23,235 nucleotides of DNA. It comes from Bdellovibrionales bacterium. Its GTDB lineage: Bacteria > Bdellovibrionota > UBA1018 > JADZFF01. Position numbers and translations under genes: made by a program. Below the pieces are notes generated by a model that ran no database searches, was not told the origin of the DNA, and saw nothing but the letters and a program-made list of their open reading frames with translations. Location of the stretch: the NCBI GenBank assembly GCA_020850015.1, contig JADZFF010000084.1, positions 1-23,235 on the forward strand. The letters run 5' to 3'. Below, one piece after another: positions 2,652 through 14,508 of this stretch (the stretch's first letter is position 1; every line of letters starts with the position of its first letter).

Positions 2652-3704
2652 ATGCCGCACCCAGCGGTAGAAGCGGAGCCCTGTCCCGTGAAAACGCTCC
2701 CCGCCCTCCTTGCCGGAATCGCCCTGCTGGCAACCCTGCCTCGGGCCTCTTCTGCCAGCGAGTCAGACCAATATTTCGCCTGGATCGAGGGCGTGGCCGA
2801 ATCTGGCCAGGCCCTCGACGAGCGTCTCCGCACCGTGATCCGCCGTAGTTTGCGAGGGATCAATCAGCGCACGATCCTGGGGCCGCGATCCTGCGAAGAG
2901 GTGGCGCTCAGAATCGCCACCGACCTGGGCAACGAGGCGGGCGCGATGGAGTTCCTTCCCGGTTCATTGGGAAATCTCCCCACCCAGCCAGGAACCCCCT
3001 GGGAGCACGCCCGGTACCGCCGGGTGAGCTACCTTGGCCCAATCCAATTCCGTGACTTCACGCTCATGCTCGCCTCCGCACCCACTCTGCGCGCCCACGG
3101 CGTGCTCTTCGGGATCGACAAGCTTCAGCACCTCTTCTCGACGGGCGCCATAGTCTACCGGAAATACCTCCGAGCGAGGGAAAGGGGCAGTTCTCCCGAG
3201 CATGCAGCCGCGGCTGCCGCGGATTTCGCGATCTGGACCGAGAACCACACCCTCGGCTACAGGAGCGATGGCGTGTTCTCCTTCGCCGACATCCACGCCG
3301 ACCTGATCGGGCTTCGTCTCCTGCGAAGCTGGTGCGAGGGCAACGAACCGGGGCTCGTCGAGGACCCCTTCGCCGGCTGGATCCTCAGCCGAGGGTTCAC
3401 GCTCGCGGGACTGCTGAGCCCCTACCTCGACGAGGCCTTCAACCCCTCCGTGCGGAGGCCGGCCTACTATGCCTTCACGCGCAATAGGGTGCGCGCCCAC
3501 TACTGCGCCCCGCTCCTGGGCGAAGCCTTGGACTCGATCCGGAGCGGTTACGAAGCTCGCCTTTCCCCACCGGATCTTGTGATCGAGGAAAGAATCGCGC
3601 GCGCGATCCGGGAAGGCGACGCGCCCGACCCCGGCCCTTACCGGTTGGAGAGCCTTTGCGCCGAGGAGCCCCACAAGGTCAGCCACCATCCTGCCGGGCG
3701 CTGA
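2652..3704 (+). CDS. Hypothetical secreted protein, no family recognised
   Basis: This is a 350-aa ORF with non-biased, protein-like composition. An N-terminal hydrophobic stretch KTLPALLAGIALLATLPRASSA looks like a signal peptide. A GTG at 2688 with GGAG 9 nt upstream is an alternative start. No catalytic motif was recognised. Confidence 0.55.
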   Translation: MPHPAVEAEPCPVKTLPALLAGIALLATLPRASSASESDQYFAWIEGVAESGQALDERLRTVIRRSLRGINQRTILGPRSCEEVALRIATDLGNEAGAMEFLPGSLGNLPTQPGTPWEHARYRRVSYLGPIQFRDFTLMLASAPTLRAHGVLFGIDKLQHLFSTGAIVYRKYLRARERGSSPEHAAAAAADFAIWTENHTLGYRSDGVFSFADIHADLIGLRLLRSWCEGNEPGLVEDPFAGWILSRGFTLAGLLSPYLDEAFNPSVRRPAYYAFTRNRVRAHYCAPLLGEALDSIRSGYEARLSPPDLVIEERIARAIREGDAPDPGPYRLESLCAEEPHKVSHHPAGR

Positions 3705-3816: not shown

Positions 3817-4374
3817 ATGTCCACTGCTCCCGTGATGAAACCACAGTCCTATCCGGCTCCGCAGCAGCGGCCTCCGCTCGGTCTCGTGCCCCAGCCCGCG
3901 GCCCTGCAACCCGCCGGGTTCTGGGAGCGCTTCGCCGCGGCTTTCATCGACGGCCTCATCATCACGGCCGTTCAGGCCCCGTTCCAGTACCTGATGGACA
4001 GCTCGGTGGCCGTTGCCCAGCGGGAGATGGAAAGCGGCGACCCGGAACGCGTGCAACAGGCCACGATGATGCTTCTGGTGCTCGCGATCGGCAAGATCGG
4101 CCTCGTGGCCGTGCTCACCTTCGCCTACTACGGCCTCTTCTACCGCTCCAAGGGCGCCACGCCGGGGAAGCTGGCGCTGGGTCTGCGCGTGATCGACATG
4201 CGCCGGCAGGAGTACCCAGGGCTCGGGGCGACCTTCCTTCGAGAGTTCGTCGGCAAGACGCTCTCGGCGATCTTCTTCATGATCGGTTACCTCATGGCGG
4301 GCTTCCGCTCGGACAAGCGCGCCATGCACGACCTGATGGCGGGCACGCAGGTGATCCGCAAGCCGCGGGCCTGA
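3817..4374 (+). CDS. RDD family membrane protein
   Basis: AGFWERFAAAFIDGLII opens the RDD domain. It is followed by TM segments, TPGKLALGLRVID and the terminal HDLMAGTQVI. A GGAGG sequence lies 5 nt upstream of the ATG. Confidence 0.8.
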   Translation: MSTAPVMKPQSYPAPQQRPPLGLVPQPAALQPAGFWERFAAAFIDGLIITAVQAPFQYLMDSSVAVAQREMESGDPERVQQATMMLLVLAIGKIGLVAVLTFAYYGLFYRSKGATPGKLALGLRVIDMRRQEYPGLGATFLREFVGKTLSAIFFMIGYLMAGFRSDKRAMHDLMAGTQVIRKPRA

Positions 4375-5160
4375 TCACTCCGCGGCGGGCATGGCGGCGG
4401 GGTCGCGGGCGCCGTCCCAGGGGATGGTGTCCGTGGCCGGCTCCAGGATCCTGAGCACCACGCGGCGGTTCCGCATCGTGGCGTTCGAATCCACCTTGCC
4501 GTCGTTCAGCCGCTCCGGGACCCAGGGCCTCGTGTCGCCATACCCGATCGCCAGAAGGTTTTCCGGATCGAATCCACGCTCCACGAAGAGACGTACCACG
4601 CGAGAGGCGCGCGCGGCGCTGAGCTCCCAGTTCGTGGGGTAAGGGCCGCTCAACACGGGCCTGCCGTCGGTGTGGCCCTCCACGACGATCCGGAATTTTT
4701 TCATCTCCATGTACTGGCGCTCGCTCAGGGCGTCCATGATCGAGCGCAGGACCGACCGGCCTTGCTCCGTGACGTTGGCGCTCAGCGTGTCGAAAAACAG
4801 CGTGCTGTGGAAGACCATGGCCACGCCCTCTGGCTCCGAATAGATCACGACGTCCTTCTCGACCCCGTTGCTCTCGACGAGTTGGGTAACAAACCGCGCG
4901 GTCTCCGCGCTCTCGCTCTTGTAGTCGCCGCCGAAGGCCTGGGCCACGGACTCGCGCACGGGCTCGAATTTCCGCTTGTCCAGCGTGGACATGCTGAACA
5001 TCATGATGAAGAAGCCGCAGAGAAGGGTCATCATGTCGGCATAGGAAACGAGCCAGTTCGACTCGTCGTCCGCCGCCTTCTTGGGCGGCTCCTGGCCCTT
5101 GCGGGCCTGGAGATCGTCCTGGATCGCCTGGGCTTTTTTCAGGAAGGAACTGATCGCCAT
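4375..5160 (-). CDS. motB: Flagellar-type stator subunit MotB (OmpA-like peptidoglycan-binding C-terminus)
   Basis: The N-terminal plug/TM region WLVSYADMMTLLCGFFIMMF carries the conserved channel Asp (D42, 5035-5037). The C-terminal OmpA-like domain reads RIVVEGHTDGRP...NWELSAARASRVVRLFVERG...AIGYGDTRP. Confidence 0.85.
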   Translation of the reverse strand: MAISSFLKKAQAIQDDLQARKGQEPPKKAADDESNWLVSYADMMTLLCGFFIMMFSMSTLDKRKFEPVRESVAQAFGGDYKSESAETARFVTQLVESNGVEKDVVIYSEPEGVAMVFHSTLFFDTLSANVTEQGRSVLRSIMDALSERQYMEMKKFRIVVEGHTDGRPVLSGPYPTNWELSAARASRVVRLFVERGFDPENLLAIGYGDTRPWVPERLNDGKVDSNATMRNRRVVLRILEPATDTIPWDGARDPAAMPAAE

Positions 5161-5182
5161 GAGCCCTCCCGCGCGCAGAGGC

Positions 5183-5968
5183 CTAGGCGGCCTTGCGCAC
5201 CACCCTGTCTTTCGGCAGCACGAACGAGTTGAGCGTCTCGCGCATGCTGATCGGGTTGGTCTGGGACCTCAGCATCACGCAGCCCTCCACCACCATCCGG
5301 CGCAGCGCCACCTCCTCCTCCGTCCGCACGGTGAGGTTCTCCGCAATCGGGAGAAACACGAAGTTCGCGATCGCGATCCCGTAGAGCGTGCCCACGAGAC
5401 CGATCGACATCGCCGGACCGATCATGGCCTCAGCGCCCGGTTTCCCGAGCTGCTGAAGAAGCGCGATCATTCCAAGAGTCGTGGCCAGAAGCCCGAACGC
5501 CGGCGGGAATTTACCGATCGCGCGGAACATGTTGGCCTCGTACATGTAGCGGTGCTCCACGGTCTTGATCCTCTGCTCAAGCGCGTCGCGGATCTCGCGC
5601 TCCGAAAGCACCCCGCCGGCCACGAGCGATACGGCCTCTCGGAGGAAAGGGTGCCTAATGCCGGGCAGCATGTCGTTCAGCGCCGTCACGCCGCCGATCG
5701 AGGCTTTCTTGTTGAGATCCAGGATCTGCTCGATCACCTGGTGATACTCGTTCCTGTGCGTGCCCAGAACCCTCAGAAAAAACACTTTCAAGAGGGCGAC
5801 CAGCTTCGAAACCGGGAACATGATCGACGCCGCGGCCATCGTGCCCCCGCAGACGATCACGACGCCGTGGAAGTTCAGGAAGAACTTGGCATCCATTCCA
5901 CTCTCGTGGATCGATGCGCCCACGATCCCGAGCCCAAGCAATACTCCGAAGAAGGACGAAAAATTCAT
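5183..5968 (-). CDS. motA: Flagellar-type stator subunit MotA/PomA (MotA/TolQ/ExbB proton-channel family)
   Basis: The 261-aa protein has two N-terminal TM helices, a long cytoplasmic loop, then FPPAFGLLATTLGMIALL and GPAMSIGLVGTLYGIAIANFVFLPIA (the conserved Pro-containing TM3/TM4). It sits directly upstream of motB with a 22-nt gap. Confidence 0.85.
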   Translation of the reverse strand: MNFSSFFGVLLGLGIVGASIHESGMDAKFFLNFHGVVIVCGGTMAAASIMFPVSKLVALLKVFFLRVLGTHRNEYHQVIEQILDLNKKASIGGVTALNDMLPGIRHPFLREAVSLVAGGVLSEREIRDALEQRIKTVEHRYMYEANMFRAIGKFPPAFGLLATTLGMIALLQQLGKPGAEAMIGPAMSIGLVGTLYGIAIANFVFLPIAENLTVRTEEEVALRRMVVEGCVMLRSQTNPISMRETLNSFVLPKDRVVRKAA

Positions 5969-5969
5969 A

Positions 5970-6494
5970 TCAGGCCGACTCCTTACGGCTCCGCATGCGG
6001 TCCACGGCGGTCTGCCAGAGCTGGTACTGACTCACGACGTAACTTCCGTCCAGCTCCCTCAGACGCATCACCAGATCCTTCACGCAACTCTCGTAGAAGC
6101 GCACCTTCCGATCTCCAGACTCGTTGAGAAAGTGCTTGAACGCCTCCTTCGAAATGAAGAAGGTCCTGCACCTGGACTTCGCCCGAACAGTCGCGGAACG
6201 CGGCTGGTCGTCCACGAGCGACATCTCCCCGAAGTAGCTTCCCGCCGCAAGCTCCCCCACATCGTAGATCTCCTCGGTGCTCGGGTTCTTCTTGAAAACA
6301 CCCACCGCCCCCTCGGCGATGAGGAAAAGGCCCCAGGAAAACTCGCCCTCGACCACGACGTTCGAATAGGCCTCGAAGTCCCTGGCATTTCCGAGCTTGA
6401 GGAGCGCATCAAGCTCGGGGTTCGTGAACGGTGCGAAAAGCTTGATCTCGCGGAGCCACTGCACAGAGGGTTGCGTGAAGTTCGGGTCTACCAT
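5970..6494 (-). CDS. Stand-alone cyclic-nucleotide-binding (CAP/CRP-effector-type) domain protein, no recognisable HTH
   Basis: The canonical phosphate-binding cassette FGEMSLVDDQPRSATVRA (6186-6233) retains the conserved Glu and Arg. It is preceded by the beta-roll segment GEFSWGLFLIAEGAVGVF. At 174 aa the protein is too short for a CRP-type DNA-binding domain. Its start overlaps the upstream stop (ATGGTAG), and its stop is 1 nt from the motA ATG. Confidence 0.85.
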   Translation of the reverse strand: MVDPNFTQPSVQWLREIKLFAPFTNPELDALLKLGNARDFEAYSNVVVEGEFSWGLFLIAEGAVGVFKKNPSTEEIYDVGELAAGSYFGEMSLVDDQPRSATVRAKSRCRTFFISKEAFKHFLNESGDRKVRFYESCVKDLVMRLRELDGSYVVSQYQLWQTAVDRMRSRKESA

Positions 6495-8881
6495 CCGGCC
6501 ACCTTCTTGATTTTGGCGAGCGTGCCATCAGAGCTCGGAGGTGGCGGAGCGGCCTGGAAAGCGTTGGGAGCGGTGCCGTCGCCGTATCCATTCGAGGCAA
6601 ACATGCGTTCGTTGGTTTCCACCAGGTTGATCTTGCCGTCCGTGGACATCTTCTTGATGCGGTTGAGGATCTTGCGCTCCACGCCCGCGTAGGAGTCGCG
6701 ACCCTGCACCTGCACGGCCTCGAGCTCCTCCTCGAGCTCCGCAACCAGGTCGCGCGGGCACTTGCTGAATACCATCTGCCGAATCTCGGCAGTGGTGCCC
6801 TTCAGGAACTGCAGGAGCTCGTCGTGCCTGAGGCTCAGCACCACCTCGAGCAGGTGCTGGTCGCGCAGGTAACGGAGCGTCTCCAAGCTGATCAGCTTGT
6901 TCTTCACGCTGTGCGCGCTGTCCGGGTTGCTGCTCTCCAGGTGACCCACGACGCTTTTCTGTACGTCGAGCCCGGTCTTTTCGAGCAGGCTCACGAGCAC
7001 GTCGGTTCCCGGCAGGGCCTCCGTGTTCAGGCGCGGGTTCTCGTGCCGCTTGCGCTTGAGGGCGCTCGCCACATTGCTGATGTAGTCCTTAGGCAGGTGG
7101 TCGATCCGCGAAAGCTCCGTGAGGATGCTGGTCTTCGTCGTCTCGTCGAGCCGGCGATACACGGCGTCGCGCTTCTGGGGATCGCACTGCGTGAGCACGA
7201 TCGCCTTCACGGTCAGGGACTCGTTGCGGACCAGCTCCAGGACCTGCATGTCGTCCATGTCCACCATGAACTCGAACAGGGCCGTGGATCGGTTACCCAT
7301 GACATAGAGCTTGGACGCGACCGTGATGTTGTGGAGCGCGCGCAGGAGCTCGAGCTTCTCCTCGTCGGAGAGCTTGATCGTGTTCCTGGCGTAGAACTCA
7401 AGAAGCTCGGTCACGTCGCGCTGCAGGCTCGGGTCGCGAAGCATGTCGACGACGATGCCTTCACCGAAGATTTCGATGTACTGCGCGGTGGCTTCCACGC
7501 CCTCCTCGGTGAGGATTCGGCTGAATACCTGCTTCGCCACCTTGGGATTCTCGGCGTAGACCTTAGAGAGGGATTCGATGAAGCCTTCGATCTCGTATCT
7601 GAGCTTCACGCGCGAGGCGCGGTCGTCGCTGCCGGACCCGGACGAGGCCTGAGCGGCGTTGCCGTTGCCCAGGGGGTCTGAGATCAGGTTCTGGAAAATT
7701 CGCTGCACCGGACCTGCGGCATCCGGGTTGCCGTGCGGGCGGTAGGCGGCGAGCGCAAGGAAGATCAGAAGAGAGAGAATCGCGCAGGCAAGCACGAGCC
7801 CGTAGACCTTGAACTTGTTGAGCTCGGCCTGGACGGCGTCGCCGCTCTCCACCCGCTCGATCTTCTCGAATCGCTCGAACTTCTCAGAGCGATTCGTATT
7901 GTCCTGTGAGGAATTGGACGAATTGTTCTGGGACACGGTCTGGTTCTTCTCGGAGCTCGAGAGGCTGCGCTGGTCGAGATACCTCGAACGCGCGTCCCGC
8001 GTGAGCTTCGATGCGGCGTCGGAGCCCCCCTGGCCCACCGAGGCGATACCCCGCGAGACACGGCTCCTGAACTCGGCCATGCGCTCGGGCGACGGGAACT
8101 GCACGGAGCTTCCGTCCACCTCGACGTTCTTGTACATCGCGTTGCGGAGACGGGCCATCTCGAGGATCGAGGAGCGCTCGTCGGGGAAGAGGCCGGAATC
8201 CATCAGGATCTTCGCGCCGATCTTCCGCACGCGCACGGCGGTGTCGCCGTCCTGGAGGAACTCTCCCGTGGATCCGTACTGGGCCTCCTCGAGGTTCACG
8301 GGATCCAGAGCCACGTCGAGGTCGCTCAGCAGGCAGCGGTCCGGGCAGTACTTGTTGAACAGCTCCTCGAGGTTGGAACGGATCTCTTTCGTGACCTTCT
8401 CGCGGATCTCGGCCACCTTGCGGCTGCTCGAGGCCGGCTGCGGGAAACGGATCACCTTCTGCTCGATCGTCACGGGGTAGGAGAGCGCATCGAGGTGCTG
8501 CTGCACGAGGTCCATCACCTTGCCACGCGACACTGGCCCAAGCATCTCGTCCACGAGGATCTTCAGAAGGACGCTCGACGCCCCGATCTCGAGGGATCTG
8601 CTCTGAATGGACTCATCGAAACCCGGCGCGATGGTGTCCGGAATCAGCGTGTCCACGGACGACTCCACCGCCAGTACCTTGCAGTGATCGGAGCAGTAGC
8701 GCTCCAGGAGCGGTTCCACCAACGAGCGAACCTGATTCTCCGCCTCGCGCTTCGCCCGATCCACGGAGCCGGGCCCCGGGGCGCCCGACGCGGGCTGGGA
8801 AAGGGCCGCGAGGGCCAGCGCCGTCCCGGCGAGGCCCGCGCACGCGGCCGTCAGTTTTCTGAAAGAGAAATCCGTTCTCAT
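6488..8881 (-). CDS. Bitopic inner-membrane protein: signal peptide + two periplasmic ring-building-motif-like repeats + TM helix + complete FliG-like (N/M/C) cytoplasmic module
   Basis: The cytoplasmic part (aa ~445-760 in ORF numbering, 6623-7570) is collinear with T. maritima FliG as recalled. FEFMVDMDDMQVLELVRNESLTVKAIVLTQCDP aligns with FSFVRDTDPVQLVNFLQSEHPQTIAVVLSYLDP. LRYLRDQHLLEVVLSLRHDELLQFLKGTTAEIRQMVFSKCPRDLVAELEEELE aligns with ILKLDDRSIQLVLREVDTRDLALALKGASDELKEKIFKNMSKRAAALLKDELE. The TM helix VYGLVLACAILSLLIFLALAAY lies at 7742-7807. The periplasmic repeats lie at ~8453-8755 and ~8093-8425. I prefer the start at Met8 (8881), which forms an ATGA overlap with the upstream stop; the longest ORF starts at 8902. 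Confidence 0.8.
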   Translation of the reverse strand: MRTDFSFRKLTAACAGLAGTALALAALSQPASGAPGPGSVDRAKREAENQVRSLVEPLLERYCSDHCKVLAVESSVDTLIPDTIAPGFDESIQSRSLEIGASSVLLKILVDEMLGPVSRGKVMDLVQQHLDALSYPVTIEQKVIRFPQPASSSRKVAEIREKVTKEIRSNLEELFNKYCPDRCLLSDLDVALDPVNLEEAQYGSTGEFLQDGDTAVRVRKIGAKILMDSGLFPDERSSILEMARLRNAMYKNVEVDGSSVQFPSPERMAEFRSRVSRGIASVGQGGSDAASKLTRDARSRYLDQRSLSSSEKNQTVSQNNSSNSSQDNTNRSEKFERFEKIERVESGDAVQAELNKFKVYGLVLACAILSLLIFLALAAYRPHGNPDAAGPVQRIFQNLISDPLGNGNAAQASSGSGSDDRASRVKLRYEIEGFIESLSKVYAENPKVAKQVFSRILTEEGVEATAQYIEIFGEGIVVDMLRDPSLQRDVTELLEFYARNTIKLSDEEKLELLRALHNITVASKLYVMGNRSTALFEFMVDMDDMQVLELVRNESLTVKAIVLTQCDPQKRDAVYRRLDETTKTSILTELSRIDHLPKDYISNVASALKRKRHENPRLNTEALPGTDVLVSLLEKTGLDVQKSVVGHLESSNPDSAHSVKNKLISLETLRYLRDQHLLEVVLSLRHDELLQFLKGTTAEIRQMVFSKCPRDLVAELEEELEAVQVQGRDSYAGVERKILNRIKKMSTDGKINLVETNERMFASNGYGDGTAPNAFQAAPPPPSSDGTLAKIKKVAGW

Positions 8882-9660
8882 TCGGAGCTTACCTTCCTCC
8901 ACTTGGACTGGTCTGACTTGCGCTCGAGGTAGGCCTTGAGCGCAAGGTTGTTCGGGTCGAGCTTCACGGACTGCTGCCAGGAACGGATCGCAAGATCGCG
9001 GTAGCCGAGTCGGTCGAGCAGGGTCCCGCGCATCTCGTAGAGGCGCGGGTCGGTTGGGAAGCTGCGCAAGAGCGCGTCGGTCTCGAGCAGACCCGCCTCG
9101 TAACGGCCCAGGCGGAAAAGCTGTTTCACCTTGTCGAGCGAGGCGAGATAGCTCGTGCCTCCGCGCGGGCCCGGGTCCTCCACGGGCCGAAGCCCGAGGC
9201 CCTGCTCAATCTCCTGCCGCTCGCGGTCGTCGGCCGGATTGCCCTGCGGCATGCGGTTCACGATCTCCAGATCCGTGGCCGTGGGTTTGCGCTCGGTGTA
9301 GCTCTGATCCATGGGTACGCCGTCGGCGTCGAGCGAGGCCGGCCTCCGGCCTTCGCCGCCTTCGATCGACTCGGCGAACTGAGGCGTGAGCGGCACCATG
9401 AAGTCCTGGAACTCCGGCTGGTCGCCCGGCAGCTCCACCTCGAGCGAGCGATGGCCCTTCTTGGTGCGGAACACCACGCGGTCCTGGCTCTGCTTCTGAA
9501 TCCACGCGGTATCGAGGAATGGGTTCTCGATCACTCCCTTCCCCGCCCCGCCATTCGGGGAGGGGCCGAGCCCGATCGATGAGCATCCGGAGGCGATGCT
9601 CAGTACGACCAGGGCGCAGAGGGTCACCGCCGCGGTCATCACCGCGTCCATCCGGGCCAT
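8878..9660 (-). CDS. TPR-repeat lipoprotein (periplasmic)
   Basis: MARMDAVMTAAVTLCALVVLSIASGC is a signal peptide ending in a lipobox-like ASGC. The C-terminus carries two TPR-like units: LGRYEAGLLETDALLRSFPTDPRLYEMRGTLLDRLGYRDLAIRSWQQSVKLDPNN. The start is uncertain. An alternative TTG at 9720 has GGGAG upstream but would overlap the preceding gene by 29 nt. Confidence 0.7.
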   Translation of the reverse strand: MARMDAVMTAAVTLCALVVLSIASGCSSIGLGPSPNGGAGKGVIENPFLDTAWIQKQSQDRVVFRTKKGHRSLEVELPGDQPEFQDFMVPLTPQFAESIEGGEGRRPASLDADGVPMDQSYTERKPTATDLEIVNRMPQGNPADDRERQEIEQGLGLRPVEDPGPRGGTSYLASLDKVKQLFRLGRYEAGLLETDALLRSFPTDPRLYEMRGTLLDRLGYRDLAIRSWQQSVKLDPNNLALKAYLERKSDQSKWRKVSSE

Positions 9661-9691
9661 ACGGGCCCGCCGGCGATCCTGATGAGCCCCC

Positions 9692-10882
9692 TCAGAAGAG
9701 GGCACTGATTCCCAAGCCAATCTCCACTCCCGTCACTGATCCCGCCTCGCTGCCGTCGATGAACCGGGTGGCCTTGGGCCTGAAACCCAGGTTTCCGTTC
9801 ACCGCCCAGTGCTTTCCCAATCGCCATTCGTAACCCGCGCGCACCAGTCCCCCGAGGAATCCCGAGGCATAGGTGCCCCCGATCCCGGCGAAGATGCTGT
9901 GCCTCACCTGATTGAAGTTCTCGAGCTCCCCGATGAGGTTCCACGCATGCACGAAGAGCAGCGTGAGGTTGAAGCTCGCGTAAAGCTTGTTGTCCGCGTC
10001 GGTGGTGTTTCCCACCAGCTGGTTCGCGTCGAGGAGGTAGTTCAACTCGAATCCGACTTCCTTCTTCCGGTTGTCGTACCGCTCCATCATCCGGAACCCG
10101 ATGCCCAAGGTGCTGGAGTACTCTTCCACGTCCCGCTCGAAGAAATAGTAGATGGTCGGCCGGTAGAGGATCGTGGGCACGTAGTCCACGCTCTTCCTCG
10201 CGTCCTCGACCTGCGAGTAGTCCACGCCCCGGCGGAAGGCGGCGGCGCGCGAGGTCTCGGAGTTGTAGCTCTTCGACCACACCACGGCCCCAGTCTCGGA
10301 GTCCGTGATGAACATCGAGAGCATCAGACCGGTGGGCTGGTAGGCGAAGGCCACGTCCATGAAGTTCGAGATCCCGCTCTGCGAGGCCAGACGTGAGAGC
10401 TCCTGCGGGTTGCTCGTGGGCGTGGTGATCACGACGTAGTCGTTGTTGAGGCGCGCCTGCTTGGACTTGCAGGGCAGGCACTGGATGATCTTGCTCTTCG
10501 TATTGTTTAGGATCCGCTCGGTGACGAGCAGCTCGAGGTGGCTCTTGAACGACGGCGGGATGTTCTCGCTCGTGGCCACGTTGCGGATCGAGAGGTTCTT
10601 CAGCCCCTCGACCTCGCCGTTCTTCAGGTCGTACTCGAAATCGGACACGACATCGTCGAGCACCTGGTAGAAATTGCGGACGCGCTCGTCTTCGCTTGCG
10701 GCCGGCGCGGGCGCCACCGGGCCCTGCTGAAGCGGAGCTTCGGCGGTAGTGGAGGCGGCCTGGCTGGACTTCACCGCATCTGCTGCCCCCGCAGAGGGCG
10801 GAAGGAGGGCGCAGAGGGCCATCAGCCCTCCCAAGACGCCCGAAAACTTTAACGTGATGCGGCAATGCACGTGATGCTTCAC
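9692..10882 (-). CDS. Outer-membrane protein: signal peptide, periplasmic N-terminal domain, C-terminal beta-barrel
   Basis: The GTG start is preceded by GGGGAGGAAGG. The signal peptide reads LKFSGVLGGLMALCALLPPSAGAADA. The C-terminal ~200 aa show alternating hydrophobic/aromatic strands (GFELNYLL, YASFNLTLLFVHAW, FAGIGGTYASGF, VRAGYEWRL, WAVNGNLGFR). The protein ends in ...GLGISALF, with the terminal Phe typical of BAM substrates. Confidence 0.7.
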   Translation of the reverse strand: MKHHVHCRITLKFSGVLGGLMALCALLPPSAGAADAVKSSQAASTTAEAPLQQGPVAPAPAASEDERVRNFYQVLDDVVSDFEYDLKNGEVEGLKNLSIRNVATSENIPPSFKSHLELLVTERILNNTKSKIIQCLPCKSKQARLNNDYVVITTPTSNPQELSRLASQSGISNFMDVAFAYQPTGLMLSMFITDSETGAVVWSKSYNSETSRAAAFRRGVDYSQVEDARKSVDYVPTILYRPTIYYFFERDVEEYSSTLGIGFRMMERYDNRKKEVGFELNYLLDANQLVGNTTDADNKLYASFNLTLLFVHAWNLIGELENFNQVRHSIFAGIGGTYASGFLGGLVRAGYEWRLGKHWAVNGNLGFRPKATRFIDGSEAGSVTGVEIGLGISALF

Positions 10883-10985
10883 CCTTCCTCCCCAGGCTCT
10901 TCGGCGAAGTTCCTAATAGCTTGAATACGTTAGGGTTTTGACTGACTCATTTAATCTACTATAAGACCGATAAGAAAGATGAGGT
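10883..10985. promoter_or_regulatory. Divergent intergenic region, locally AT-richer; presumed promoters for the minus-strand six-gene operon and the plus-strand lipoprotein gene
   Basis: This is the only sizeable non-coding gap flanking the operon. It contains TTGAATACGTTAGGGTTTTGACTGACTCATTTAATCTACTATAAGACCGATAAGAAAG, which is much lower in GC than its surroundings. I could not assign convincing -35/-10 or sigma-54 boxes by eye. Confidence 0.35.
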
Positions 10986-11984
10986 ATGGGGGGAAGAACC
11001 ATAAAAACAGCCGCAATCCTGGGAAGCACCCTGCTTGCCGGCTGCTCTACGCCCCAGGGTGCCATTCCCCTGCCGGAGCTGCCCGAGGTGCCGGCCTACG
11101 TACGGGTTCCCCACCCCGGCAACGCCGATTTGAACGAGGTCCGGGCCCTATTCCAGAGCCCCGAGGCCCCAACTCCTGAAACCCTCGCCGCCTGCACCGC
11201 CGACTACGAGCGGATCCAGACGATGACCCAGAGCAAGGAAGACCACTCGCAGGCCGCGCAGGAGCTCGTGGGCCTGCGTCCCGAGGCCTATCACTGGTGC
11301 CTGTACTGGCAGTTCGTGCGCCTCGAGGACCGCATCAAGGAACTCCCGTACCATGACGAGCGCCAGGCCGAGGTCCTCAAGGCCTATGCCTTCATTGTTC
11401 CCGTGGCCCGCGCATTCCGCGAGGTCTACCAGGACTCGCGGTATTTGCGGATCGCCGCCTTCCGCTACCAGAAGGTCAGCGAACGCATCTTCTTCAGACA
11501 GGTGGCCCTGACCTCCGAAGGGGCACGTGACCTGCTGGCCGCCCAGTCGCTGGATCCGCACTCGGTGTGGCAAGCGATGAAAGACACTCAGTCTCCCACT
11601 TTGGAGCGGCTCGGGTTCGTGCCCCCGCCCTCCGAGGTGGACACCTTGATCAAAGAAGCCCCAGCCGGACCCGCCACGGCTGACGTGCCCGCTCCCGCGG
11701 GTGATGCGCCTCCGGCGGCCGCGACGGAACCCGCCGCTGCGCCCGCCGAAGCCGAAGTGGACTCGGAATGGGAGAAGGAGCTCCAGGCGATGGGGGACAA
11801 GGCAGAACCTCCAGCCGCGGCTCCGGTGGACCCCGCGGCGCCTCCCGCGCCCGAGGCCACCGCCCAGGCCGCGCCCCCACCGGCTGATCCGGCCCGCGCC
11901 CCCAGCGCGACGACCGAGCCCTCCCTCGAAGGAATCGAGGAGTTCTCGGCACCGACCGACCCTCCGGCAAACCCTGCCGATTGA
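10986..11984 (+). CDS. Lipoprotein with a Pro/Ala-rich C-terminal tail, family not recognised
   Basis: MGGRTIKTAAILGSTLLAGC carries a canonical lipobox, LLAGC. A globular ~200-aa region follows, then ~115 aa of PA-rich low complexity (PAGPATADVPAPAGDAPPAAATEPAAAP...). Confidence 0.7.
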   Translation: MGGRTIKTAAILGSTLLAGCSTPQGAIPLPELPEVPAYVRVPHPGNADLNEVRALFQSPEAPTPETLAACTADYERIQTMTQSKEDHSQAAQELVGLRPEAYHWCLYWQFVRLEDRIKELPYHDERQAEVLKAYAFIVPVARAFREVYQDSRYLRIAAFRYQKVSERIFFRQVALTSEGARDLLAAQSLDPHSVWQAMKDTQSPTLERLGFVPPPSEVDTLIKEAPAGPATADVPAPAGDAPPAAATEPAAAPAEAEVDSEWEKELQAMGDKAEPPAAAPVDPAAPPAPEATAQAAPPPADPARAPSATTEPSLEGIEEFSAPTDPPANPAD

Positions 11985-12026: not shown

Positions 12027-12998
12027 ATGCGCTGGAATTGCCCGCACTGCTCGATTGAACTGTACCTGGACGACGCTCGCGTCGGGAACGGCTGGTCCTT
12101 CGCGCGCTGCTACAGCTGCGCGGGATTCAGCCTGGTCCGCAAGTCCAACGTGAATACGATCCGGATCGACCAGGCCCCGACGCCGGAAACGATCCTTCAG
12201 CCCCAACCTTCCGTTCCGCGCGTCGAGGTCCCCGCGCAGGGGCCGGTGGCGAACGCGCTGACCCGCCTCGGCGTGGCTCAGAAGAACCTCGGAGAGGCCC
12301 AGACCTCAAGGCCGCAGGTGATCCCCGGCCGCCGCACTCAGCCGCCCGGCCAGACCACGGCGGCGGCTGCCGCCCCGGCCGCGAAAAACATCTTTGGCAC
12401 CCGAACTTTGCCTCAACCGCTTCCGCTCAACCCGCGCACCAGCTCCACTCCTAAGGCTGCGGCGGCCCGCCGTTCGCGCGGGCTGATTCCAGTCGTGCTC
12501 GGGATCATGGCCGTGCTGGTCACAGGCAGCGGCGCCTTCCTTTACGTCCAAGGGCAGAACATGTGGGACCGCGCCCGCGCGGAGCTGGGCCCGGACACCG
12601 ATGGCGTGAAGCTCGGCGCCTCGGCGCCTCAGCGCGCGGCCGGAGCCAAGGCCAGGAAGTCGCAACACAAGGACGCGACGATCTTCTCCGACCGCATCGG
12701 CCAGGGCGCCATGGCCCCCAACCGGGAAATGGGACCCGGAGCCGTGGTCCGCGCCGACGAAGAGACCGACGGGATCCCCGGCCGCATGGTGGTGCGGCCC
12801 ATCCAAAACGCGGTGAACCTGCGGATGGGCCCGGGGACGAAGTACCCCATCGTGGGCCAGGCCGACGCGACGATCACCTACACCGTGACGGAATGGCGCG
12901 AACAGTGGTTCCGCATCATCCCGAACACGGGGCCTGCGGAAGAGGCCTGGATCCGCAACGACTACGTGAACACGGTCAAAGAGACTTCGCAGGAGTGA
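12027..12998 (+). CDS. Zinc-ribbon (MJ0042-type CxxC...CxxC) - Pro-rich linker - TM - periplasmic SH3-like domain protein
   Basis: The N-terminus reads WNCPHCSIELYLDDARVGNGWSFARCYSCAGFSL (12039-12119). The TM helix GLIPVVLGIMAVLVTGSGAFLYV lies at 12480-12548. The C-terminal bacterial SH3 pattern is VNLRMGPGTKYPIVGQADATITYTVTEWREQWFRII...EAWIRNDYV (12786-12968). I prefer the ATG at 12027 (GGGGGA 4-5 nt upstream) over the TTG at 12015. Confidence 0.7.
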   Translation: MRWNCPHCSIELYLDDARVGNGWSFARCYSCAGFSLVRKSNVNTIRIDQAPTPETILQPQPSVPRVEVPAQGPVANALTRLGVAQKNLGEAQTSRPQVIPGRRTQPPGQTTAAAAAPAAKNIFGTRTLPQPLPLNPRTSSTPKAAAARRSRGLIPVVLGIMAVLVTGSGAFLYVQGQNMWDRARAELGPDTDGVKLGASAPQRAAGAKARKSQHKDATIFSDRIGQGAMAPNREMGPGAVVRADEETDGIPGRMVVRPIQNAVNLRMGPGTKYPIVGQADATITYTVTEWREQWFRIIPNTGPAEEAWIRNDYVNTVKETSQE

Positions 12999-14508
12999 TC
13001 GGCTCGCAGGCCCAGATCAGGATCTCCTTGGCCTTGAGGCCCCAGCGCAGGATCTCATTTCTCTGGGCCACGGCGCATCTCGCGTTCTTGAACCGGGGCT
13101 CGCCGGAGTACCGGTTGTCCGAGACGTAGAAGACGGAGCGCTCAAGCCGCGGCCAGGTTTGCGGGGTGTCGGCTGGCAAGTCGCCGTCCAGCCCGAAGAA
13201 CCGCGGCCATTCGTCCCAGTCGCGAATCGTCTTCGGAGAAAGCGTCGCTCGGTTGGGGTCGCCGCCTGCCCGCGCGATCGCCGCGGCCGCCTGCGAGGCC
13301 GTCTGGTAGCGGGATCCGATCACGGGCACCTCCGATTTCGCGAGCGGCTCGAGCGCCTGCCTCCAGCCGTAGAGGTCGTTCGTCACGTCCCACTTCGGGT
13401 CGGGCGCGTCCTTTCCCCGCGCGAGGATCGATGCCGCGGCCGTGAACACGGGCGCGTGGCATGCCAGGAGCATCAGCGCCACCAAGGGAAAACCCCAGGC
13501 CAGGTGCAGGCGCGCCAGGCTCCGCTCGCCCGTCGATGCAAGGCCCGAGGCCGCGCGGTAGCCGAGCTCCCAAGCCAGCGGAATCCACACCACCATCGGC
13601 CAGTGGGGCTTGAAGTCCGCGATCAGGGGCTGGAAAAAATAGACGAGCGCGGGCGGCGCCACCCAGATCGCCGTGAACCTCGCCACCTCGTTTCGACGGT
13701 CGATCCACAGCCTCCTCCCGAACCAGATCAGGTACAGCACGAGCGCCGGGCCGCCGAGCCCCAACTGACTTCCCCAGAAGCGCAGCCAGCGCAGGATGGA
13801 GAAACCGCCGGAATGGCGATCCTTCAATTGGTAAAGCAGCGACACCCACTCGTGTTCGAGATTCCAGGCCACCGTCGGCGCCGCGGCCACGAGCCCCCCC
13901 AGGAAGATCGCCGCGAGCGCGGGAACCCTCCGCTTGCGCGCAGGCCAGACGCAGACCGCGGCGGAAAGGGCCACGAGCACCCCGGAGTGCTTCGAGAGCG
14001 TGGCGATGAGCACGCCGGCGAAGAGCAGCGCCGCGCCGGGAAGGTTCTGGGCGGACACCCGCCAGGCACCCCAGAAGGCCAACGCCCAGCCCAGCAGGAG
14101 CGGAAGGTCCGGCACCATCATCCAGCCCGCGGCGCCGAAACCAGGAAGCGTGAGCAACATGGCACCGGCGGCCCAGGCGTAGTGCCGGTGCACGCCCAGG
14201 CTCAGAAGCCAGCGGGAGCCGATGAAGGCCAAGCCGCCCGCGCAAAGCGCGGCGGGGAGGCGGACCACGAAGGGGTGCGCGGAGCCGAACAGGGGGCGCA
14301 GGAGCCCCTCCGCGGCCGCGATCAGCCAGGCCACGAACGGAGGGTGGTAGGCGTAGCCCAGGGCGGGGCGCTGAGAGAGCACCCAGTAGTAGGCTTCGTC
14401 GTCGGAGAGCCCCAGCAGCGCGCCGTGCGCGGCGAAGAGAGCGAAGATCAGCGCGGCGATGCCCGCGCCCGCGGGAAGCCTGGGCTCAGTTGACTGAGCC
14501 ACCGTCAC
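12976..14508 (-). CDS. GT-C fold glycosyltransferase, family 39/83 (ArnT / PMT-like, polyprenyl-phosphate-sugar dependent)
   Basis: This is a polytopic 510-aa membrane protein. The first-loop motif LSDDEAYYWVLSQRPALGYAYHPPFVAWL carries the acidic DE typical of ArnT/PMT enzymes. There are ~10 or more hydrophobic helices and a soluble C-terminal domain. Confidence 0.75.
   Translation of the reverse strand: MTVAQSTEPRLPAGAGIAALIFALFAAHGALLGLSDDEAYYWVLSQRPALGYAYHPPFVAWLIAAAEGLLRPLFGSAHPFVVRLPAALCAGGLAFIGSRWLLSLGVHRHYAWAAGAMLLTLPGFGAAGWMMVPDLPLLLGWALAFWGAWRVSAQNLPGAALLFAGVLIATLSKHSGVLVALSAAVCVWPARKRRVPALAAIFLGGLVAAAPTVAWNLEHEWVSLLYQLKDRHSGGFSILRWLRFWGSQLGLGGPALVLYLIWFGRRLWIDRRNEVARFTAIWVAPPALVYFFQPLIADFKPHWPMVVWIPLAWELGYRAASGLASTGERSLARLHLAWGFPLVALMLLACHAPVFTAAASILARGKDAPDPKWDVTNDLYGWRQALEPLAKSEVPVIGSRYQTASQAAAAIARAGGDPNRATLSPKTIRDWDEWPRFFGLDGDLPADTPQTWPRLERSVFYVSDNRYSGEPRFKNARCAVAQRNEILRWGLKAKEILIWACEPITPAKSL

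What the first reader, a model, noticed from the sequence alone, without database searches (positions are those of the whole stretch)
4375..10882. Six-gene coupled operon linking a MotA/MotB stator to a membrane-anchored FliG-like protein, a cNMP sensor, a TPR lipoprotein and an OM barrel: candidate non-flagellar envelope-spanning stator-driven machine
Seen in sequence: six same-strand ORFs run from 10882 to 4375 on the minus strand. Their junctions are a 31-nt gap (or 29-nt overlap, depending on start choice) at 9660-9720, an ATGA start/stop overlap at 8878-8881, a 7-nt overlap ATGGTAG at 6488-6494, a 1-nt spacer at 5969 and a 22-nt spacer at 5161-5182. One AT-richer region lies upstream (10883-10985), and a convergent gene abuts the motB stop, so this looks like a single transcription unit. 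Predicted locations cover every envelope layer: an OM barrel, a periplasmic lipoprotein, an IM protein with both periplasmic and cytoplasmic domains, the IM stator with its peptidoglycan anchor, and a cytoplasmic sensor. Established knowledge: MotA/MotB 5:2 stators generate torque by acting on the FliG C-terminal domain of the flagellar rotor. FliG is normally soluble and docks on the FliF MS-ring. Other MotAB-family motors (Tol-Pal, ExbBD, GldLM, AglRQS, Zorya) use different partners. Inference: no rod, hook, export-gate (flhA/fliPQR), fliM/fliN or filament genes occur anywhere in the 23 kb, and the FliG-like module is covalently tethered to its own periplasmic ring-like domains. The locus therefore looks like a stripped-down rotor-stator pair wired to an OM component, not a flagellar locus. 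I do not recognise it as a described system.
Basis: partly seen in the sequence, partly recalled or inferred. Interest (0 to 1): 0.92.

Follow-up and report, generated by a model that had tools for sequence, protein, structure and literature searches.

The report
Non-flagellar FliG rotor with own stator
An uncultured class of predatory-type bacteria that already has a normal flagellum also carries a conserved operon with its own MotA/MotB ion motor, a membrane-anchored FliG "rotor" protein fused to ring-building periplasmic domains, and outer-membrane partners; this looks like a second, undescribed envelope machine built from flagellar motor parts.

Summary
Six tightly coupled minus-strand genes (10882-4375) encode:
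- an outer-membrane protein (a TolB-N/LpoB-like periplasmic domain plus an 8-stranded barrel);
- a TPR lipoprotein;
- an ~800-aa protein made of a signal peptide, two FliF/SctJ-type ring-building (RBM) domains, one TM helix and a full FliG (N/M/C);
- a PKA-type cNMP-binding protein;
- a flagellar-type MotA and MotB.

The gene order is kept in about 70 species-level Bdellovibrionota genomes, mostly class UBA1018. Distant variants keep the same five core families in a different order (OMP-TPR-MotA-MotB-fusion). In one lineage the OMP N-domain and the TPR protein are fused into one protein.

One carrier, FG-1, is a flagellated magnetotactic Bdellovibrionota. It also has a complete canonical fliE-F-G-H-I...fliMN-PQR-flhBA cluster, so the fusion is not the lineage's MS/C-ring.

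The FliG module has lost the FliM-binding EHPQ motif. Its MotA/FliG charge pairs are shifted, which suggests a private interface.

No paper in the searched library describes the system. Function, ring formation and rotation are inferred, not shown. Long disordered linkers on both sides of the TM helix are a caveat for a rigid-rotor model.

Verdict: a real, conserved, apparently undescribed stator-driven envelope system of high interest.

The parts
9692..10882 (-). Outer-membrane protein (396 aa): Sec signal peptide, periplasmic alpha/beta domain (about residues 70-207, conserved CxxC at 135/138), and a C-terminal 8-stranded beta-barrel (238-394) ending in Phe.
   Evidence: AF2 model pLDDT 83 with 8 strands. 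Foldseek hits: LpoB C-domain, TolB, GNA1162 for the N-domain; NspA, OmpW, OmpA-TM, OmpX for the barrel. No Pfam family. The family is about 60% identical and annotated only as 'hypothetical'. C-terminal F is conserved.
8878..9660 (-). TPR lipoprotein (260 aa from ATG 9660; the ORF extends to TTG 9720): lipobox ASGC, low-complexity middle, about two TPR repeats at residues ~170-246.
   Evidence: Pfam TPR_2/TPR_14, weak. PDB TPR hits down to 6e-9. Lipobox present in most orthologues. Present in 75 of 81 loci. Fused to the OMP N-domain in L082.
6488..8881 (-). Rotor-like fusion protein (797 aa from ATG 8881; residues below are numbered from GTG 8902): cleavable signal peptide, RBM-a, RBM-b, S/N/T-rich linker, conserved juxtamembrane helix plus one TM, cytoplasmic linker, FliG N-like, M and C domains.
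8090..8767 (-). Two tandem ring-building-motif-like domains (residues 46-152 and 153-271), each alpha-beta-beta-alpha-beta with an invariant CxxxC (C70/C74, C186/C190).
   Evidence: AF2 secondary structure with pLDDT above 90. Foldseek hits: FliF 7bk0_B 5.7e-4, 6scn_A 1.6e-3, YscD 4alz, PrgK/PrgH 5tcp and 3j1x. Invariant Cys. Only 131 cluster representatives in 1.84 billion carry this domain.
7742..8089 (-). Periplasmic disordered S/N/T-rich linker (residues 272-339; 39-97 aa across the family) followed by the most conserved periplasmic element, the juxtamembrane helix 'EKIERVExGDAVQAEL', and the single TM helix (340-387).
   Evidence: pLDDT below 50 for residues 286-351 and a helix at 353-387. 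Length, composition and conservation. Invariant columns E346-D355.
6587..7618 (-). Full FliG-like module: N-like helical domain (429-540), FliG_M (541-625), FliG_C with torque helix (626-772).
   Evidence: Pfam FliG_M 8.6e-8 and FliG_C 6.7e-16. TIGR00207 fliG 2e-15, below cutoff. PDB 3ajc 3e-11; 3hjl covers residues 493-754. Foldseek 3hjl aligned over 319 columns. Alignment to the canonical FG-1 FliG.
5970..6494 (-). Stand-alone cNMP-binding protein (174 aa) with an intact phosphate-binding cassette FGEMSLxDxxPRSATV and a conserved C-terminal helix. Accessory regulator.
   Evidence: Pfam cNMP_binding 7.6e-18. Closest solved relatives are PKA/PKG CNB domains at about 1e-21. Family conservation. 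Absent in 12 loci and in distant operons.
5183..5968 (-). MotA (261 aa), flagellar-stator type (PomA/MotP-like, 4 TM).
   Evidence: Pfam MotA_ExbB. NCBIfam MotP/MotA/PomA at 1e-44 to 1e-39, below equivalog cutoffs. PDB flagellar MotA 9lu9 2e-33 and PomA 6e-28. Channel prolines invariant, but the R88/E96 equivalents are not conserved.
4375..5160 (-). MotB (261 aa): TM with invariant Asp42, plug, OmpA-like peptidoglycan-binding domain.
   Evidence: Pfam MotB_plug 2e-18 and OmpA 9e-15. NCBIfam MotD/MotS/MotB. Family conservation.
10883..10985 (.). 103-bp AT-richer divergent intergenic region with a Shine-Dalgarno before GTG 10882; presumed promoter region for the operon and for the divergent lipoprotein gene.
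   Evidence: Sequence. No sigma-70 consensus found.
10986..11984 (+). Divergently transcribed lipoprotein (332 aa, lipobox LAGC, Pro/Ala-rich tail), a candidate seventh member.
   Evidence: Conserved next to the OMP gene in 58 of 81 loci. Lipobox. Inverted together with the six genes in the window lineage and in L003 (coordinates). No Pfam or PDB match.

Best explanation
The locus encodes a self-contained, non-flagellar, ion-driven rotor-stator machine that spans the cell envelope.

Shown:
- A flagellar-type MotA/MotB stator, with a conserved channel Asp, plug and peptidoglycan anchor, is co-inherited with a type-I membrane protein.
- The cytoplasmic part of that protein is a complete FliG (N/M/C). 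Its periplasmic part is two FliF/SctJ-type ring-building domains.
- The set also includes an OM-anchored pair: an 8-stranded barrel with a TolB-N/LpoB-like periplasmic domain, and a TPR lipoprotein.

Inferred:
- The fusion protein oligomerises into a ring through its RBM domains. This would present a ring of FliG_C torque helices to MotA5B2 units.
- Ion flow turns MotA, which drives (or strains) the FliG ring.
- The motion or force passes across the inner membrane through the TM helix and conserved juxtamembrane helix to the periplasmic RBM ring, and on to the OM-anchored OMP-TPR complex. Alternatively, that complex is the scaffold that positions and activates MotB, as MotX/MotY/FlgT or PflA/PflB do in flagellar motors.
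- The module has no FliM-binding motif, so there is no CheY switch. In most UBA1018 members a cAMP/cGMP-binding protein, translationally coupled between rotor and stator genes, is proposed to gate engagement, playing a YcgR-like brake or clutch role.
- The shifted charge pattern on both MotA and the FliG torque helix would insulate this pair from the cell's canonical flagellar motor.

The cellular output is unknown. Candidates are envelope or OM remodelling, surface movement, or prey contact.
For: - Operon anatomy and translational coupling.
- Domain identities.
- Functional residues kept: MotB Asp42 and the MotA channel prolines are invariant. The FliG K264/D288/D289 equivalents (K701, E725, E726) are in register, with basic residues one position from R281 and R297.
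- Periplasmic location of the RBMs: AxA signal peptides and an invariant CxxxC pair in each RBM.
- Co-inheritance: the same order in about 70 species. Distant operons keep OMP-TPR-MotA-MotB-fusion with profile E-values of 1e-21 to 1e-49.
- A fusion of the OMP N-domain with the TPR protein in L082 (a domain fusion that points to a physical partnership).
- Independence from the flagellum: FG-1 carries canonical FliF (499 bits) and FliG (310 bits, with EHPQ, GG and MFVF) in a full flagellar cluster, plus extra weak FliG hits and many MotA/MotB. The cells have one polar flagellum.
- The fusion has ESLT in place of EHPQ, PG in place of GG, and LVSL in place of MFVF.
- Flanks are housekeeping genes, not flagellar genes.
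Against: - Nothing shows oligomerisation, rotation or a load.
- The TM helix is flanked by poorly conserved, predicted-disordered linkers: 39-97 aa in the periplasm and 34-52 aa in the cytoplasm. These would transmit torque poorly unless they become ordered on assembly.
- The RBM assignment rests on an AF2 model and modest Foldseek E-values (5.7e-4 to 1e-1). There is no sequence similarity to FliF.
- The canonical MotA R90/E98 pair is not conserved in register, so the FliG-MotA contact is assumed, not demonstrated.
- The barrel has very short external loops, so there is no obvious surface effector.
- Two distant fusion genes stand alone without an adjacent motAB.
- All carriers are uncultured.
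Confidence: 0.55

Rival explanations
1. A Tol-Pal/TonB-like force transducer rather than a continuously rotating ring. In this reading the MotAB unit pulls or winds the flexible tethers of the FliG-anchored membrane protein. That exerts force on OM-anchored partners (the TolB-N-like domain protein and the TPR protein) for OM tethering, invagination or envelope homeostasis.
For: The domain inventory parallels Tol-Pal: a MotA/TolQ-family motor, a TolB-N-like fold, a CpoB-like TPR protein and an OmpA-like PG binder. There are long disordered linkers on both sides of the TM. The barrel has minimal surface loops, so it acts as an anchor. The neighbours include PG-related genes (an M14 peptidase and an SH3 lipoprotein).
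Against: The stator is of the flagellar 4-TM type with a plug, not TolQR/ExbBD. A complete FliG with a conserved torque helix and tandem ring-building domains is not needed for a simple tether. There is no TolA/TonB-like domain, no TolB propeller and no Pal.
Confidence: 0.2
2. An accessory part of the canonical polar flagellar motor of this class, for example an extra ring or stator-recruiting structure for the unusually thick, sheathed-looking flagellum, using one of several MotAB pairs.
For: Carriers are flagellated with a 53-nm-thick polar flagellum. FG-1 has many MotA/MotB paralogues. Two flagellin genes lie 4-6 kb from the locus in L001. TPR and OM-anchored scaffolds are known around Vibrio and Campylobacter stators (my own knowledge).
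Against: A second FliG with its own membrane anchor and RBM ring cannot occupy the FliF-bound FliG sites. It lacks the FliM-binding EHPQ motif. The operon is never embedded in flagellar gene clusters in 79 loci. The canonical cluster in FG-1 is complete without it. The MotA/FliG charge register differs from the canonical one.
Confidence: 0.12
3. It is this lineage's replacement for FliF plus FliG, that is, the true MS/C-ring as a natural fusion.
For: The topology mimics engineered FliF-FliG fusions: PDB 8z4d appears among the sequence hits, and such fusions assemble rings (papers listed).
Against: FG-1 has separate canonical fliF and fliG inside a complete flagellar cluster. The fusion lacks RBM3 and the beta-collar, having only about 225 structured periplasmic residues. 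It also lacks the EHPQ/MFVF motifs. No export-gate or rod genes are nearby.
Confidence: 0.03
4. A Zorya-like anti-phage defence system or a decaying flagellar remnant.
For: MotB matches the ZorB models and the cNMP domain matches Pycsar effector models in PADLOC.
Against: There is no ZorA hit, and no ZorC/D or other effector. These matches are generic MotB and CNB homology. The locus is syntenic and vertically conserved, with many invariant residues across about 70 species, unlike defence islands or pseudogenes.
Confidence: 0.03

Closest known systems
Bacterial flagellar rotor-stator core (FliF MS-ring, FliG, MotA5B2/PomAB)
   Same: Flagellar-clade MotA with a plug-bearing, PG-binding MotB and the channel Asp. 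A full FliG N/M/C fold with an acidic pair and a Lys of the torque helix in register. RBM-type periplasmic domains on the membrane protein that carries FliG. A topology equivalent to engineered FliF-FliG fusions.
   Different: One polypeptide instead of FliF plus FliG. Only two RBMs, with no RBM3 or beta-collar. A cleaved signal peptide and a single TM. No EHPQ/MFVF/GG motifs. No FliM/FliN, export gate, rod, hook or filament genes. Shifted MotA/FliG charge register. It coexists with a complete canonical flagellar cluster in the same genome.
Injectisome inner-ring lipoprotein SctJ (PrgK/EscJ) and SctD (YscD/PrgH)
   Same: Two tandem RBM domains in the periplasm followed by a C-terminal TM helix, as in SctJ. 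These proteins are structural hits in Foldseek.
   Different: No lipobox, no T3SS genes, and a large cytoplasmic FliG module that no SctJ or SctD has.
Tol-Pal system (TolQRA-TolB-Pal-CpoB)
   Same: A MotA/TolQ-family ion motor encoded with an envelope-spanning set that includes a TolB-N-like fold, a TPR protein and an OmpA-like PG-binding domain. It links the inner membrane to the outer membrane.
   Different: The stator is of the flagellar 4-TM type with a plug. There is no TolA, no TolB beta-propeller and no Pal. The partner is FliG-like.
Periplasmic stator scaffolds of polar flagella (Vibrio MotX/MotY/FlgT; Campylobacter PflA/PflB)
   Same: TPR/Sel1-type and OM-anchored proteins encoded with, or acting on, MotB-type stators. 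This suggests a possible role for the OMP-TPR pair (comparison from my own knowledge, not tested).
   Different: No sequence or fold match to these proteins was seen here. They assemble around a canonical basal body.
Other 5:2 motor systems (GldLM/PorLM, AglRQS-Glt, ExbBD-TonB, ZorAB)
   Same: The principle of a MotAB-family motor energising an envelope process.
   Different: None of them uses FliG. Their A subunits belong to the non-flagellar clade. There is no PADLOC ZorA hit.
YcgR-type flagellar brake
   Same: A small second-messenger-binding protein genetically tied to a rotor-stator pair.
   Different: A PKA-type cNMP-binding domain instead of a c-di-GMP-binding PilZ domain. Any interaction with MotA or FliG is untested. 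PilZ genes lie near the variant operons.

Membership tests
Flagellar FliG (TIGR00207 / Pfam FliG_M + FliG_C) | FliG middle and C-terminal domains detectable by profile | tested here: met
   FliG_C 6.7e-16 (58.9 bits against a 23.3 cutoff) and FliG_M 8.6e-8 (32.7 against 25). PDB FliG 3e-11. Foldseek full-length FliG.
Flagellar FliG (TIGR00207 / Pfam FliG_M + FliG_C) | Scores as an equivalog of flagellar FliG (NCBIfam cutoff) | tested here: not met
   TIGR00207 scores 56.9 bits against a cutoff of 226.7. Canonical FG-1 FliG scores 310 bits on K02410, while the extra copies score about 115.
Flagellar FliG (TIGR00207 / Pfam FliG_M + FliG_C) | FliM-binding EHPQR motif, Gly-Gly linker, MFXF hinge | tested here: not met
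   ESLT, PG and LVSL sit at the aligned positions. These residues are family-invariant or nearly so.
Flagellar FliG (TIGR00207 / Pfam FliG_M + FliG_C) | Torque-helix charged residues (E. coli K264, R281, D288, D289, R297) | tested here: inconclusive
   K701, E725 and E726 are in register. Basic residues 717 and 735 are one position off the R281 and R297 equivalents.
Flagellar FliG (TIGR00207 / Pfam FliG_M + FliG_C) | Soluble protein docked on the FliF C-terminus; encoded in a fliE-F-G-H-I context | tested here: not met
   Covalently membrane-anchored. The flanks are non-flagellar in 79 loci.
FliF MS-ring protein | RBM1-RBM2-RBM3 with beta-collar between two TM helices | tested here: not met
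   Only two RBM-like units, a cleaved signal peptide and one TM. Structural similarity to FliF chains at 5.7e-4, but no sequence similarity to FG-1 FliF.
Flagellar stator MotA/MotB (FIT clade) | 4-TM MotA with a large cytoplasmic domain; MotB with TM Asp, plug and OmpA-like PGB | tested here: met
   Channel prolines and Asp42 are invariant.
Flagellar stator MotA/MotB (FIT clade) | MotA R90/E98 (PomA R88/E96) rotor-facing charges | tested here: not met
   S/A/G and N/K/S sit at those columns, while K87-K88 and E/D99 are conserved nearby.
Flagellar stator MotA/MotB (FIT clade) | Passes NCBIfam equivalog cutoffs for MotA/PomA/MotB | tested here: not met
   Best scores are 150.6 bits against a 394 cutoff (MotP) and 147.5 against 283 (MotD).
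Tol-Pal | TolQ/TolR (3-TM A subunit), TolA, TolB beta-propeller, Pal lipoprotein | tested here: not met
   The A subunit matches flagellar MotA and PomA, not TolQ. Only a TolB-N-like fold is present, attached to a barrel. Pal appears only as a generic OmpA-domain hit.
Zorya defence | ZorA with a long cytoplasmic tail, plus ZorB and ZorC/D or ZorE | tested here: not met
   No ZorA hit and no effector. ZorB hits reflect generic MotB homology.
Injectisome SctJ | Lipoprotein with two RBMs and a C-terminal TM inside a T3SS locus | tested here: not met
   The fold resembles it, but there is an AxA signal peptide and no lipobox, and no T3SS genes.
Ring-forming rotor (functional class) | Oligomerises into a closed ring and rotates | not testable with these tools
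   No multimer prediction or experiment is available. This is inferred from the RBM fold only.

The most novel reading that the evidence does not exclude
Class UBA1018 Bdellovibrionota and some relatives possess a second, free-standing rotary nanomachine built from a FliG ring fused to its own RBM ring. It is driven by a dedicated, insulated MotAB stator, coupled to an OM-anchored complex and gated by cyclic nucleotide. This would be the first non-flagellar use of the FliG-MotA torque interface. It could be a living model, ancestral-like or secondarily stripped-down, of a flagellar rotor without a type III export apparatus.
Probability: 0.45. Interest if true: 0.92.

Novelty: new variant of a known kind. 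Interest (0 to 1): 0.82.

Why it matters
FliG-MotA torque generation has only ever been seen inside flagella. All other MotAB-family motors (Tol, Ton, Gld, Agl, Zor) use unrelated partners.

A conserved FliG rotor that is covalently tied to its own ring-building domains, has a private stator and OM partners, lacks any export apparatus or axial structure, and coexists with a normal flagellum would be a new type of envelope machine.

It would give a minimal rotor-stator pair for structural and single-molecule work. It bears directly on how the flagellar motor could have evolved, or can be dismantled, in modules. It offers a natural example of how paralogous stator-rotor pairs avoid cross-talk. 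It would also add cAMP/cGMP to the messengers that control such motors.

In addition, it flags an unexplored expansion of MotAB systems in a poorly known, probably predatory class (up to 10 MotA hits in the FG MAG KEGG table; every hit shown is from FG-1).

Tried and rejected
- One literature query was swamped by 'second flight' matches. The other five found nothing describing the system.
- Attempts to name the organisms of the distant variants through cluster look-ups returned no taxon names except one Silvanigrellales MAG.
- A search from the Silvanigrellales variant found only 10 relatives, none cultured.
- The 578-aa protein next to the second MotAB pair in L049 shows no detectable similarity to the fusion family, so it was not counted as a member.
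- The family profile does not detect FG-1 FliF by sequence.
- The conserved C-terminal 'GW' of the fusion was considered as a docking motif. It is better explained by the overlapping ATGGTAG start of the cNMP gene, because it occurs only where that gene is present.
- The promoter scan found no sigma-70 consensus, and terminator-like sites were at chance level.
- Rfam and tRNA scans of the window were empty.
- The defence-system reading was rejected.
- The 'lineage's own MS/C-ring' reading was rejected.

Full report
**Origin and observation**

The window is a contig of a Bdellovibrionales MAG. The 804-aa ORF product is 100% identical to NCBI 'hypothetical protein IT285_06935', which sits on a 23,308-bp contig. 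Six minus-strand ORFs run from 10882 to 4375.

- a 31-nt gap between the OMP stop (9692) and ATG 9660 of the TPR gene;
- an ATGA overlap at 8878-8881, which sets the true start of the large protein at ATG 8881 (797 aa, as in the NCBI model);
- an ATGGTAG overlap at 6488-6494;
- a 1-nt spacer at 5969;
- a 22-nt spacer with GGGAGGG before motB.

A convergent RDD-family gene ends at 4374. The rest of the window holds housekeeping genes: phosphoesterases, an SH3 lipoprotein, an M14 peptidase, a DedA/VTT protein, XerC/D, TrmFO, EamA, an amino-acid permease and an HD protein. It holds no flagellar gene, no tRNA and no Rfam hit.

**The stator**

The last two genes are a flagellar-type stator.
- MotB has MotB_plug (2e-18) and OmpA (9e-15) domains. 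Its closest NCBIfam models are MotD/MotS/MotB.
- MotA matches MotP/MotA/PomA models at 1e-44 to 1e-39. It matches solved flagellar MotA and PomA structures over its full length (9lu9 2e-33, PomA 6e-28).
- Across about 70 orthologues the MotB channel Asp (D42) and the MotA channel prolines are invariant.
- Both proteins score well below the equivalog cutoffs.
- The rotor-facing pair known from E. coli R90/E98 (PomA R88/E96) is replaced by S/A/G and N/K/S. A conserved Lys-Lys and an acidic residue sit nearby.

**The rotor-like protein**

Pfam finds FliG_M (553-622) and FliG_C (654-760). A family profile hits T. maritima FliG at 3e-11 and aligns to full-length A. aeolicus FliG from residue 493.

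An AF2 model from 63 homologues (mean pLDDT 77.6; domains above 90) gives this layout:
- an N-terminal signal helix;
- two alpha-beta-beta-alpha-beta units (46-152 and 153-271);
- a disordered stretch (286-351);
- a long helix that includes the TM segment (353-387);
- a second low-confidence linker;
- an all-helical cytoplasmic part (425-772).

Foldseek against the PDB ranks full-length FliG and Salmonella C-ring FliG first, with 319 aligned columns. The next hits are Salmonella FliF MS-ring chains (5.7e-4 and 1.6e-3, about 270 columns), YscD, PrgK/PrgH and another MS-ring entry. The periplasmic part is therefore a tandem of ring-building-motif folds.

Homologues have AxA signal-peptidase sites, and each RBM carries an invariant CxxxC pair. 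Both features fit a periplasmic location.

The architecture is: signal peptide, RBM-a, RBM-b, S/N/T-rich linker (39-97 aa), conserved juxtamembrane helix plus TM, cytoplasmic linker (34-52 aa), then FliG N/M/C. The best-conserved segments are the juxtamembrane/TM element and FliG_M.

**Comparison with a canonical FliG from the same class**

The FG-1 FliG sequence comes from the supplement of PMC13200544. The fusion family aligns to it over the M and C domains (50 bits).
- The FliM-binding EHPQ is ESLT.
- The Gly-Gly linker is PG.
- The MFVF hinge is LVSL.
- In the torque helix the equivalents of K264, D288 and D289 are kept in register (K701, E725, E726).
- The basic residues sit one position away from the R281 and R297 equivalents.

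Together with the altered MotA charges, this reads as a co-diverged, private interface. That is an inference.

**The outer partners**

The 396-aa protein has no Pfam family. Its family is about 60% identical and annotated only as hypothetical.

Its AF2 model (pLDDT 83) has an alpha/beta domain (about 70-207) and eight long antiparallel strands (238-394). Foldseek matches the first part to the LpoB C-domain, TolB and GNA1162, and the second to NspA, OmpW, OmpA-TM and OmpX. The chain ends in Phe in nearly all members, as expected for an OM barrel. The external loops are very short, so it looks like an anchor.

The next protein has a lipobox and about two C-terminal TPR repeats.

The 174-aa protein is a single cNMP-binding domain with an intact PKA-type phosphate-binding cassette and a conserved C-terminal helix.

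**Conservation**

A scan of one genome per GTDB species returned 79 loci. All are Bdellovibrionota or Oligoflexia-labelled MAGs, or mislabelled ones, plus the FG-1 and FG-2 genomes.

tblastn of the window proteins shows the order OMP-TPR-fusion-(cNMP)-MotA-MotB wherever the contig reaches. The cNMP gene is missing in 12 loci, where motA follows the fusion directly.

The divergent lipoprotein gene (10986-11984) is present in 58 loci. In most genomes the SH3...TrmFO block lies downstream of motB. In the window and its closest relative L003, the block [lipoprotein + six genes] is inverted as one unit (coordinates).

A profile of the RBM pair, searched against 1.84 billion cluster representatives, finds only 131 proteins. 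These include:
- divergent 730-990-aa proteins with the same RBM-TM-FliG layout, one from a Silvanigrellales MAG;
- a 570-611-aa short form with one RBM.

The neighbourhoods of three divergent long forms read [about 400 aa]-[TPR-like]-MotA-MotB-fusion. Profiles show that the first two genes are homologues of the OMP (1e-46 and 1e-49) and of the TPR protein (1e-21 and 1e-24).

In the short-form locus on a 7.5-Mb contig, a 689-aa protein fuses the OMP N-domain (74-250) to the whole TPR protein (438-683). It sits next to MotA-MotB and the 611-aa short form. That fusion points to a physical partnership between the two.

So five families co-occur through gene-order change and domain fusion, and the cNMP sensor is an add-on. 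Two distant fusions stand without an adjacent motAB.

**Not the flagellum**

FG-1 and FG-2 belong to GTDB class UBA1018 (proposed name Bdellonasia). The cells are vibrioid, with one thick polar flagellum and a pointed anterior pole (PMC13200544).

The FG-1 annotation in that paper's supplement lists a contiguous canonical cluster: FlgB, FlgC, FliE, FliF (499 bits), FliG (310 bits), FliH, FliI, FliJ, FlgD/E, FliL, FliM, FliN, FliO-R, FlhB, FlhA, FlhF and FliA. It also lists further weak K02410 hits (one shown at 115 bits). The stored part of the table holds up to 10 MotA and 5 MotB hits.

FG-1 also carries the OMP-TPR-fusion genes (L064 and L065, both cut by contig ends), and FG-2 carries the full operon (L030). 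The fusion is therefore a paralogous system beside a complete flagellum.

One caveat: the same supplement scores no complete flagellum system in one of the two FG MAGs (apparently FG-2, the second column), which also lacks an rRNA operon and a T2SS, so it looks less complete.

**Mechanism**

The best-supported reading (confidence about 0.55) is a self-contained stator-driven machine.
- PG-anchored MotA5B2 units act on a ring of FliG_C domains.
- The ring is built by the RBM domains of the same polypeptide.
- The periplasmic face meets an OM-anchored OMP-TPR complex, which is either the load or the scaffold that positions MotB.
- A cNMP-binding protein gates the contact where it is present.

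Shown: composition, topology signals, conserved catalytic or torque residues, co-inheritance, and independence from the flagellar regulon.

Inferred: oligomerisation, rotation, coupling and regulation.

The main internal objection is the pair of long, variable, disordered linkers around the TM helix. These suit a Tol/Ton-like pulling or winding mechanism better than a rigid shaft. I carry that reading as the chief rival (0.2).

A flagellum-associated accessory structure (0.12) cannot be excluded without imaging. A natural FliF-FliG replacement, a Zorya-like defence system, or a decaying remnant are contradicted (and the strong conservation).

**Novelty**

Five informative full-text searches found no description of a membrane-anchored FliG with a dedicated MotAB outside flagella. 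The recent MotAB phylogeny paper treats the non-flagellar homologues as ExbBD, TolQR and AglRS types only. Database names are 'hypothetical protein', 'FliG C-terminal domain-containing protein' or an automatic 'FliG'.

I rate it a new variant of a known kind: the FliG-MotAB rotor-stator, redeployed without an export apparatus or axial structure. There is about a 0.45 chance that it is a truly free-standing rotary organelle.

Noticed in passing
L049:1617-6025: Directly upstream of the main cluster, this genome has a second set: TPR protein (197 aa), MotA (243 aa), MotB (284 aa), a 578-aa protein (signal peptide, ~170-aa periplasmic part, one TM, helical cytoplasmic part) and a 199-aa protein. 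The 578-aa protein shows no detectable similarity to the fusion family but has the same layout.
   Followed up: partly
L082:4226-9836 (7.5-Mb contig, organism unnamed): Short-form system: a 689-aa protein that fuses the OMP N-domain to the TPR protein, then MotA, MotB and a 611-aa one-RBM FliG-like protein, with two separate OMP_b-brl genes upstream.
   Followed up: partly
L087:1-512 and the Silvanigrellales contig of P0314 (gene at 555-1262): A PilZ-domain gene lies about 5-6 kb upstream of the variant OMP-TPR-MotA-MotB-fusion operons, which lack the cNMP gene. It may be a c-di-GMP counterpart of the cNMP regulator, or a coincidence.
   Followed up: no
PMC13200544 supplement file 10 (FG-1 KEGG table): The stored part of the table lists 10 K02556 (MotA), 5 K02557 (MotB) and 4 K02410 (FliG) hits but only one FliF. 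This suggests a large expansion of stator-like systems in class UBA1018.
   Followed up: partly
window 4375-11984 versus L001, L009 etc.: The block [divergent lipoprotein + six genes] is inverted as one unit relative to the conserved SH3/510-aa/M14/VTT/Xer/TrmFO flank in the window and in L003, compared with most other genomes.
   Followed up: partly
L001:3766-5886: Two tandem flagellin genes (Flagellin_N/C) lie 4-6 kb upstream of the cluster on a 737-kb contig. No other flagellar genes are in the 22-kb view.
   Followed up: no
L064 and L065 (FG-1, two contigs): FG-1 has two copies of OMP-TPR-fusion, and both contigs end at the same residue (595) of the fusion gene. This suggests either a recent duplication or strain variants that break the assembly.
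   Followed up: no
window 6488-6494 and fusion C-termini in the loci: The conserved C-terminal '...KKVAGW' of the fusion ends in GW only where the cNMP gene follows (32 loci) and never where it is absent. The W is probably constrained by the overlapping ATGGTAG start/stop.
   Followed up: yes
window 12976-14508 (-) and 2652-3704 (+): A 510-aa and a 350-aa protein with no Pfam family. The 510-aa gene is syntenic with the cluster's flank (SH3, M14 peptidase) in 38 loci.
   Followed up: no
L084:13790-15262: A stand-alone distant fusion gene (747 aa, no adjacent motAB) sits in a contig that also encodes a TLC ATP/ADP translocase, hinting at an energy-parasitic or intracellular lifestyle for that organism.
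   Followed up: no
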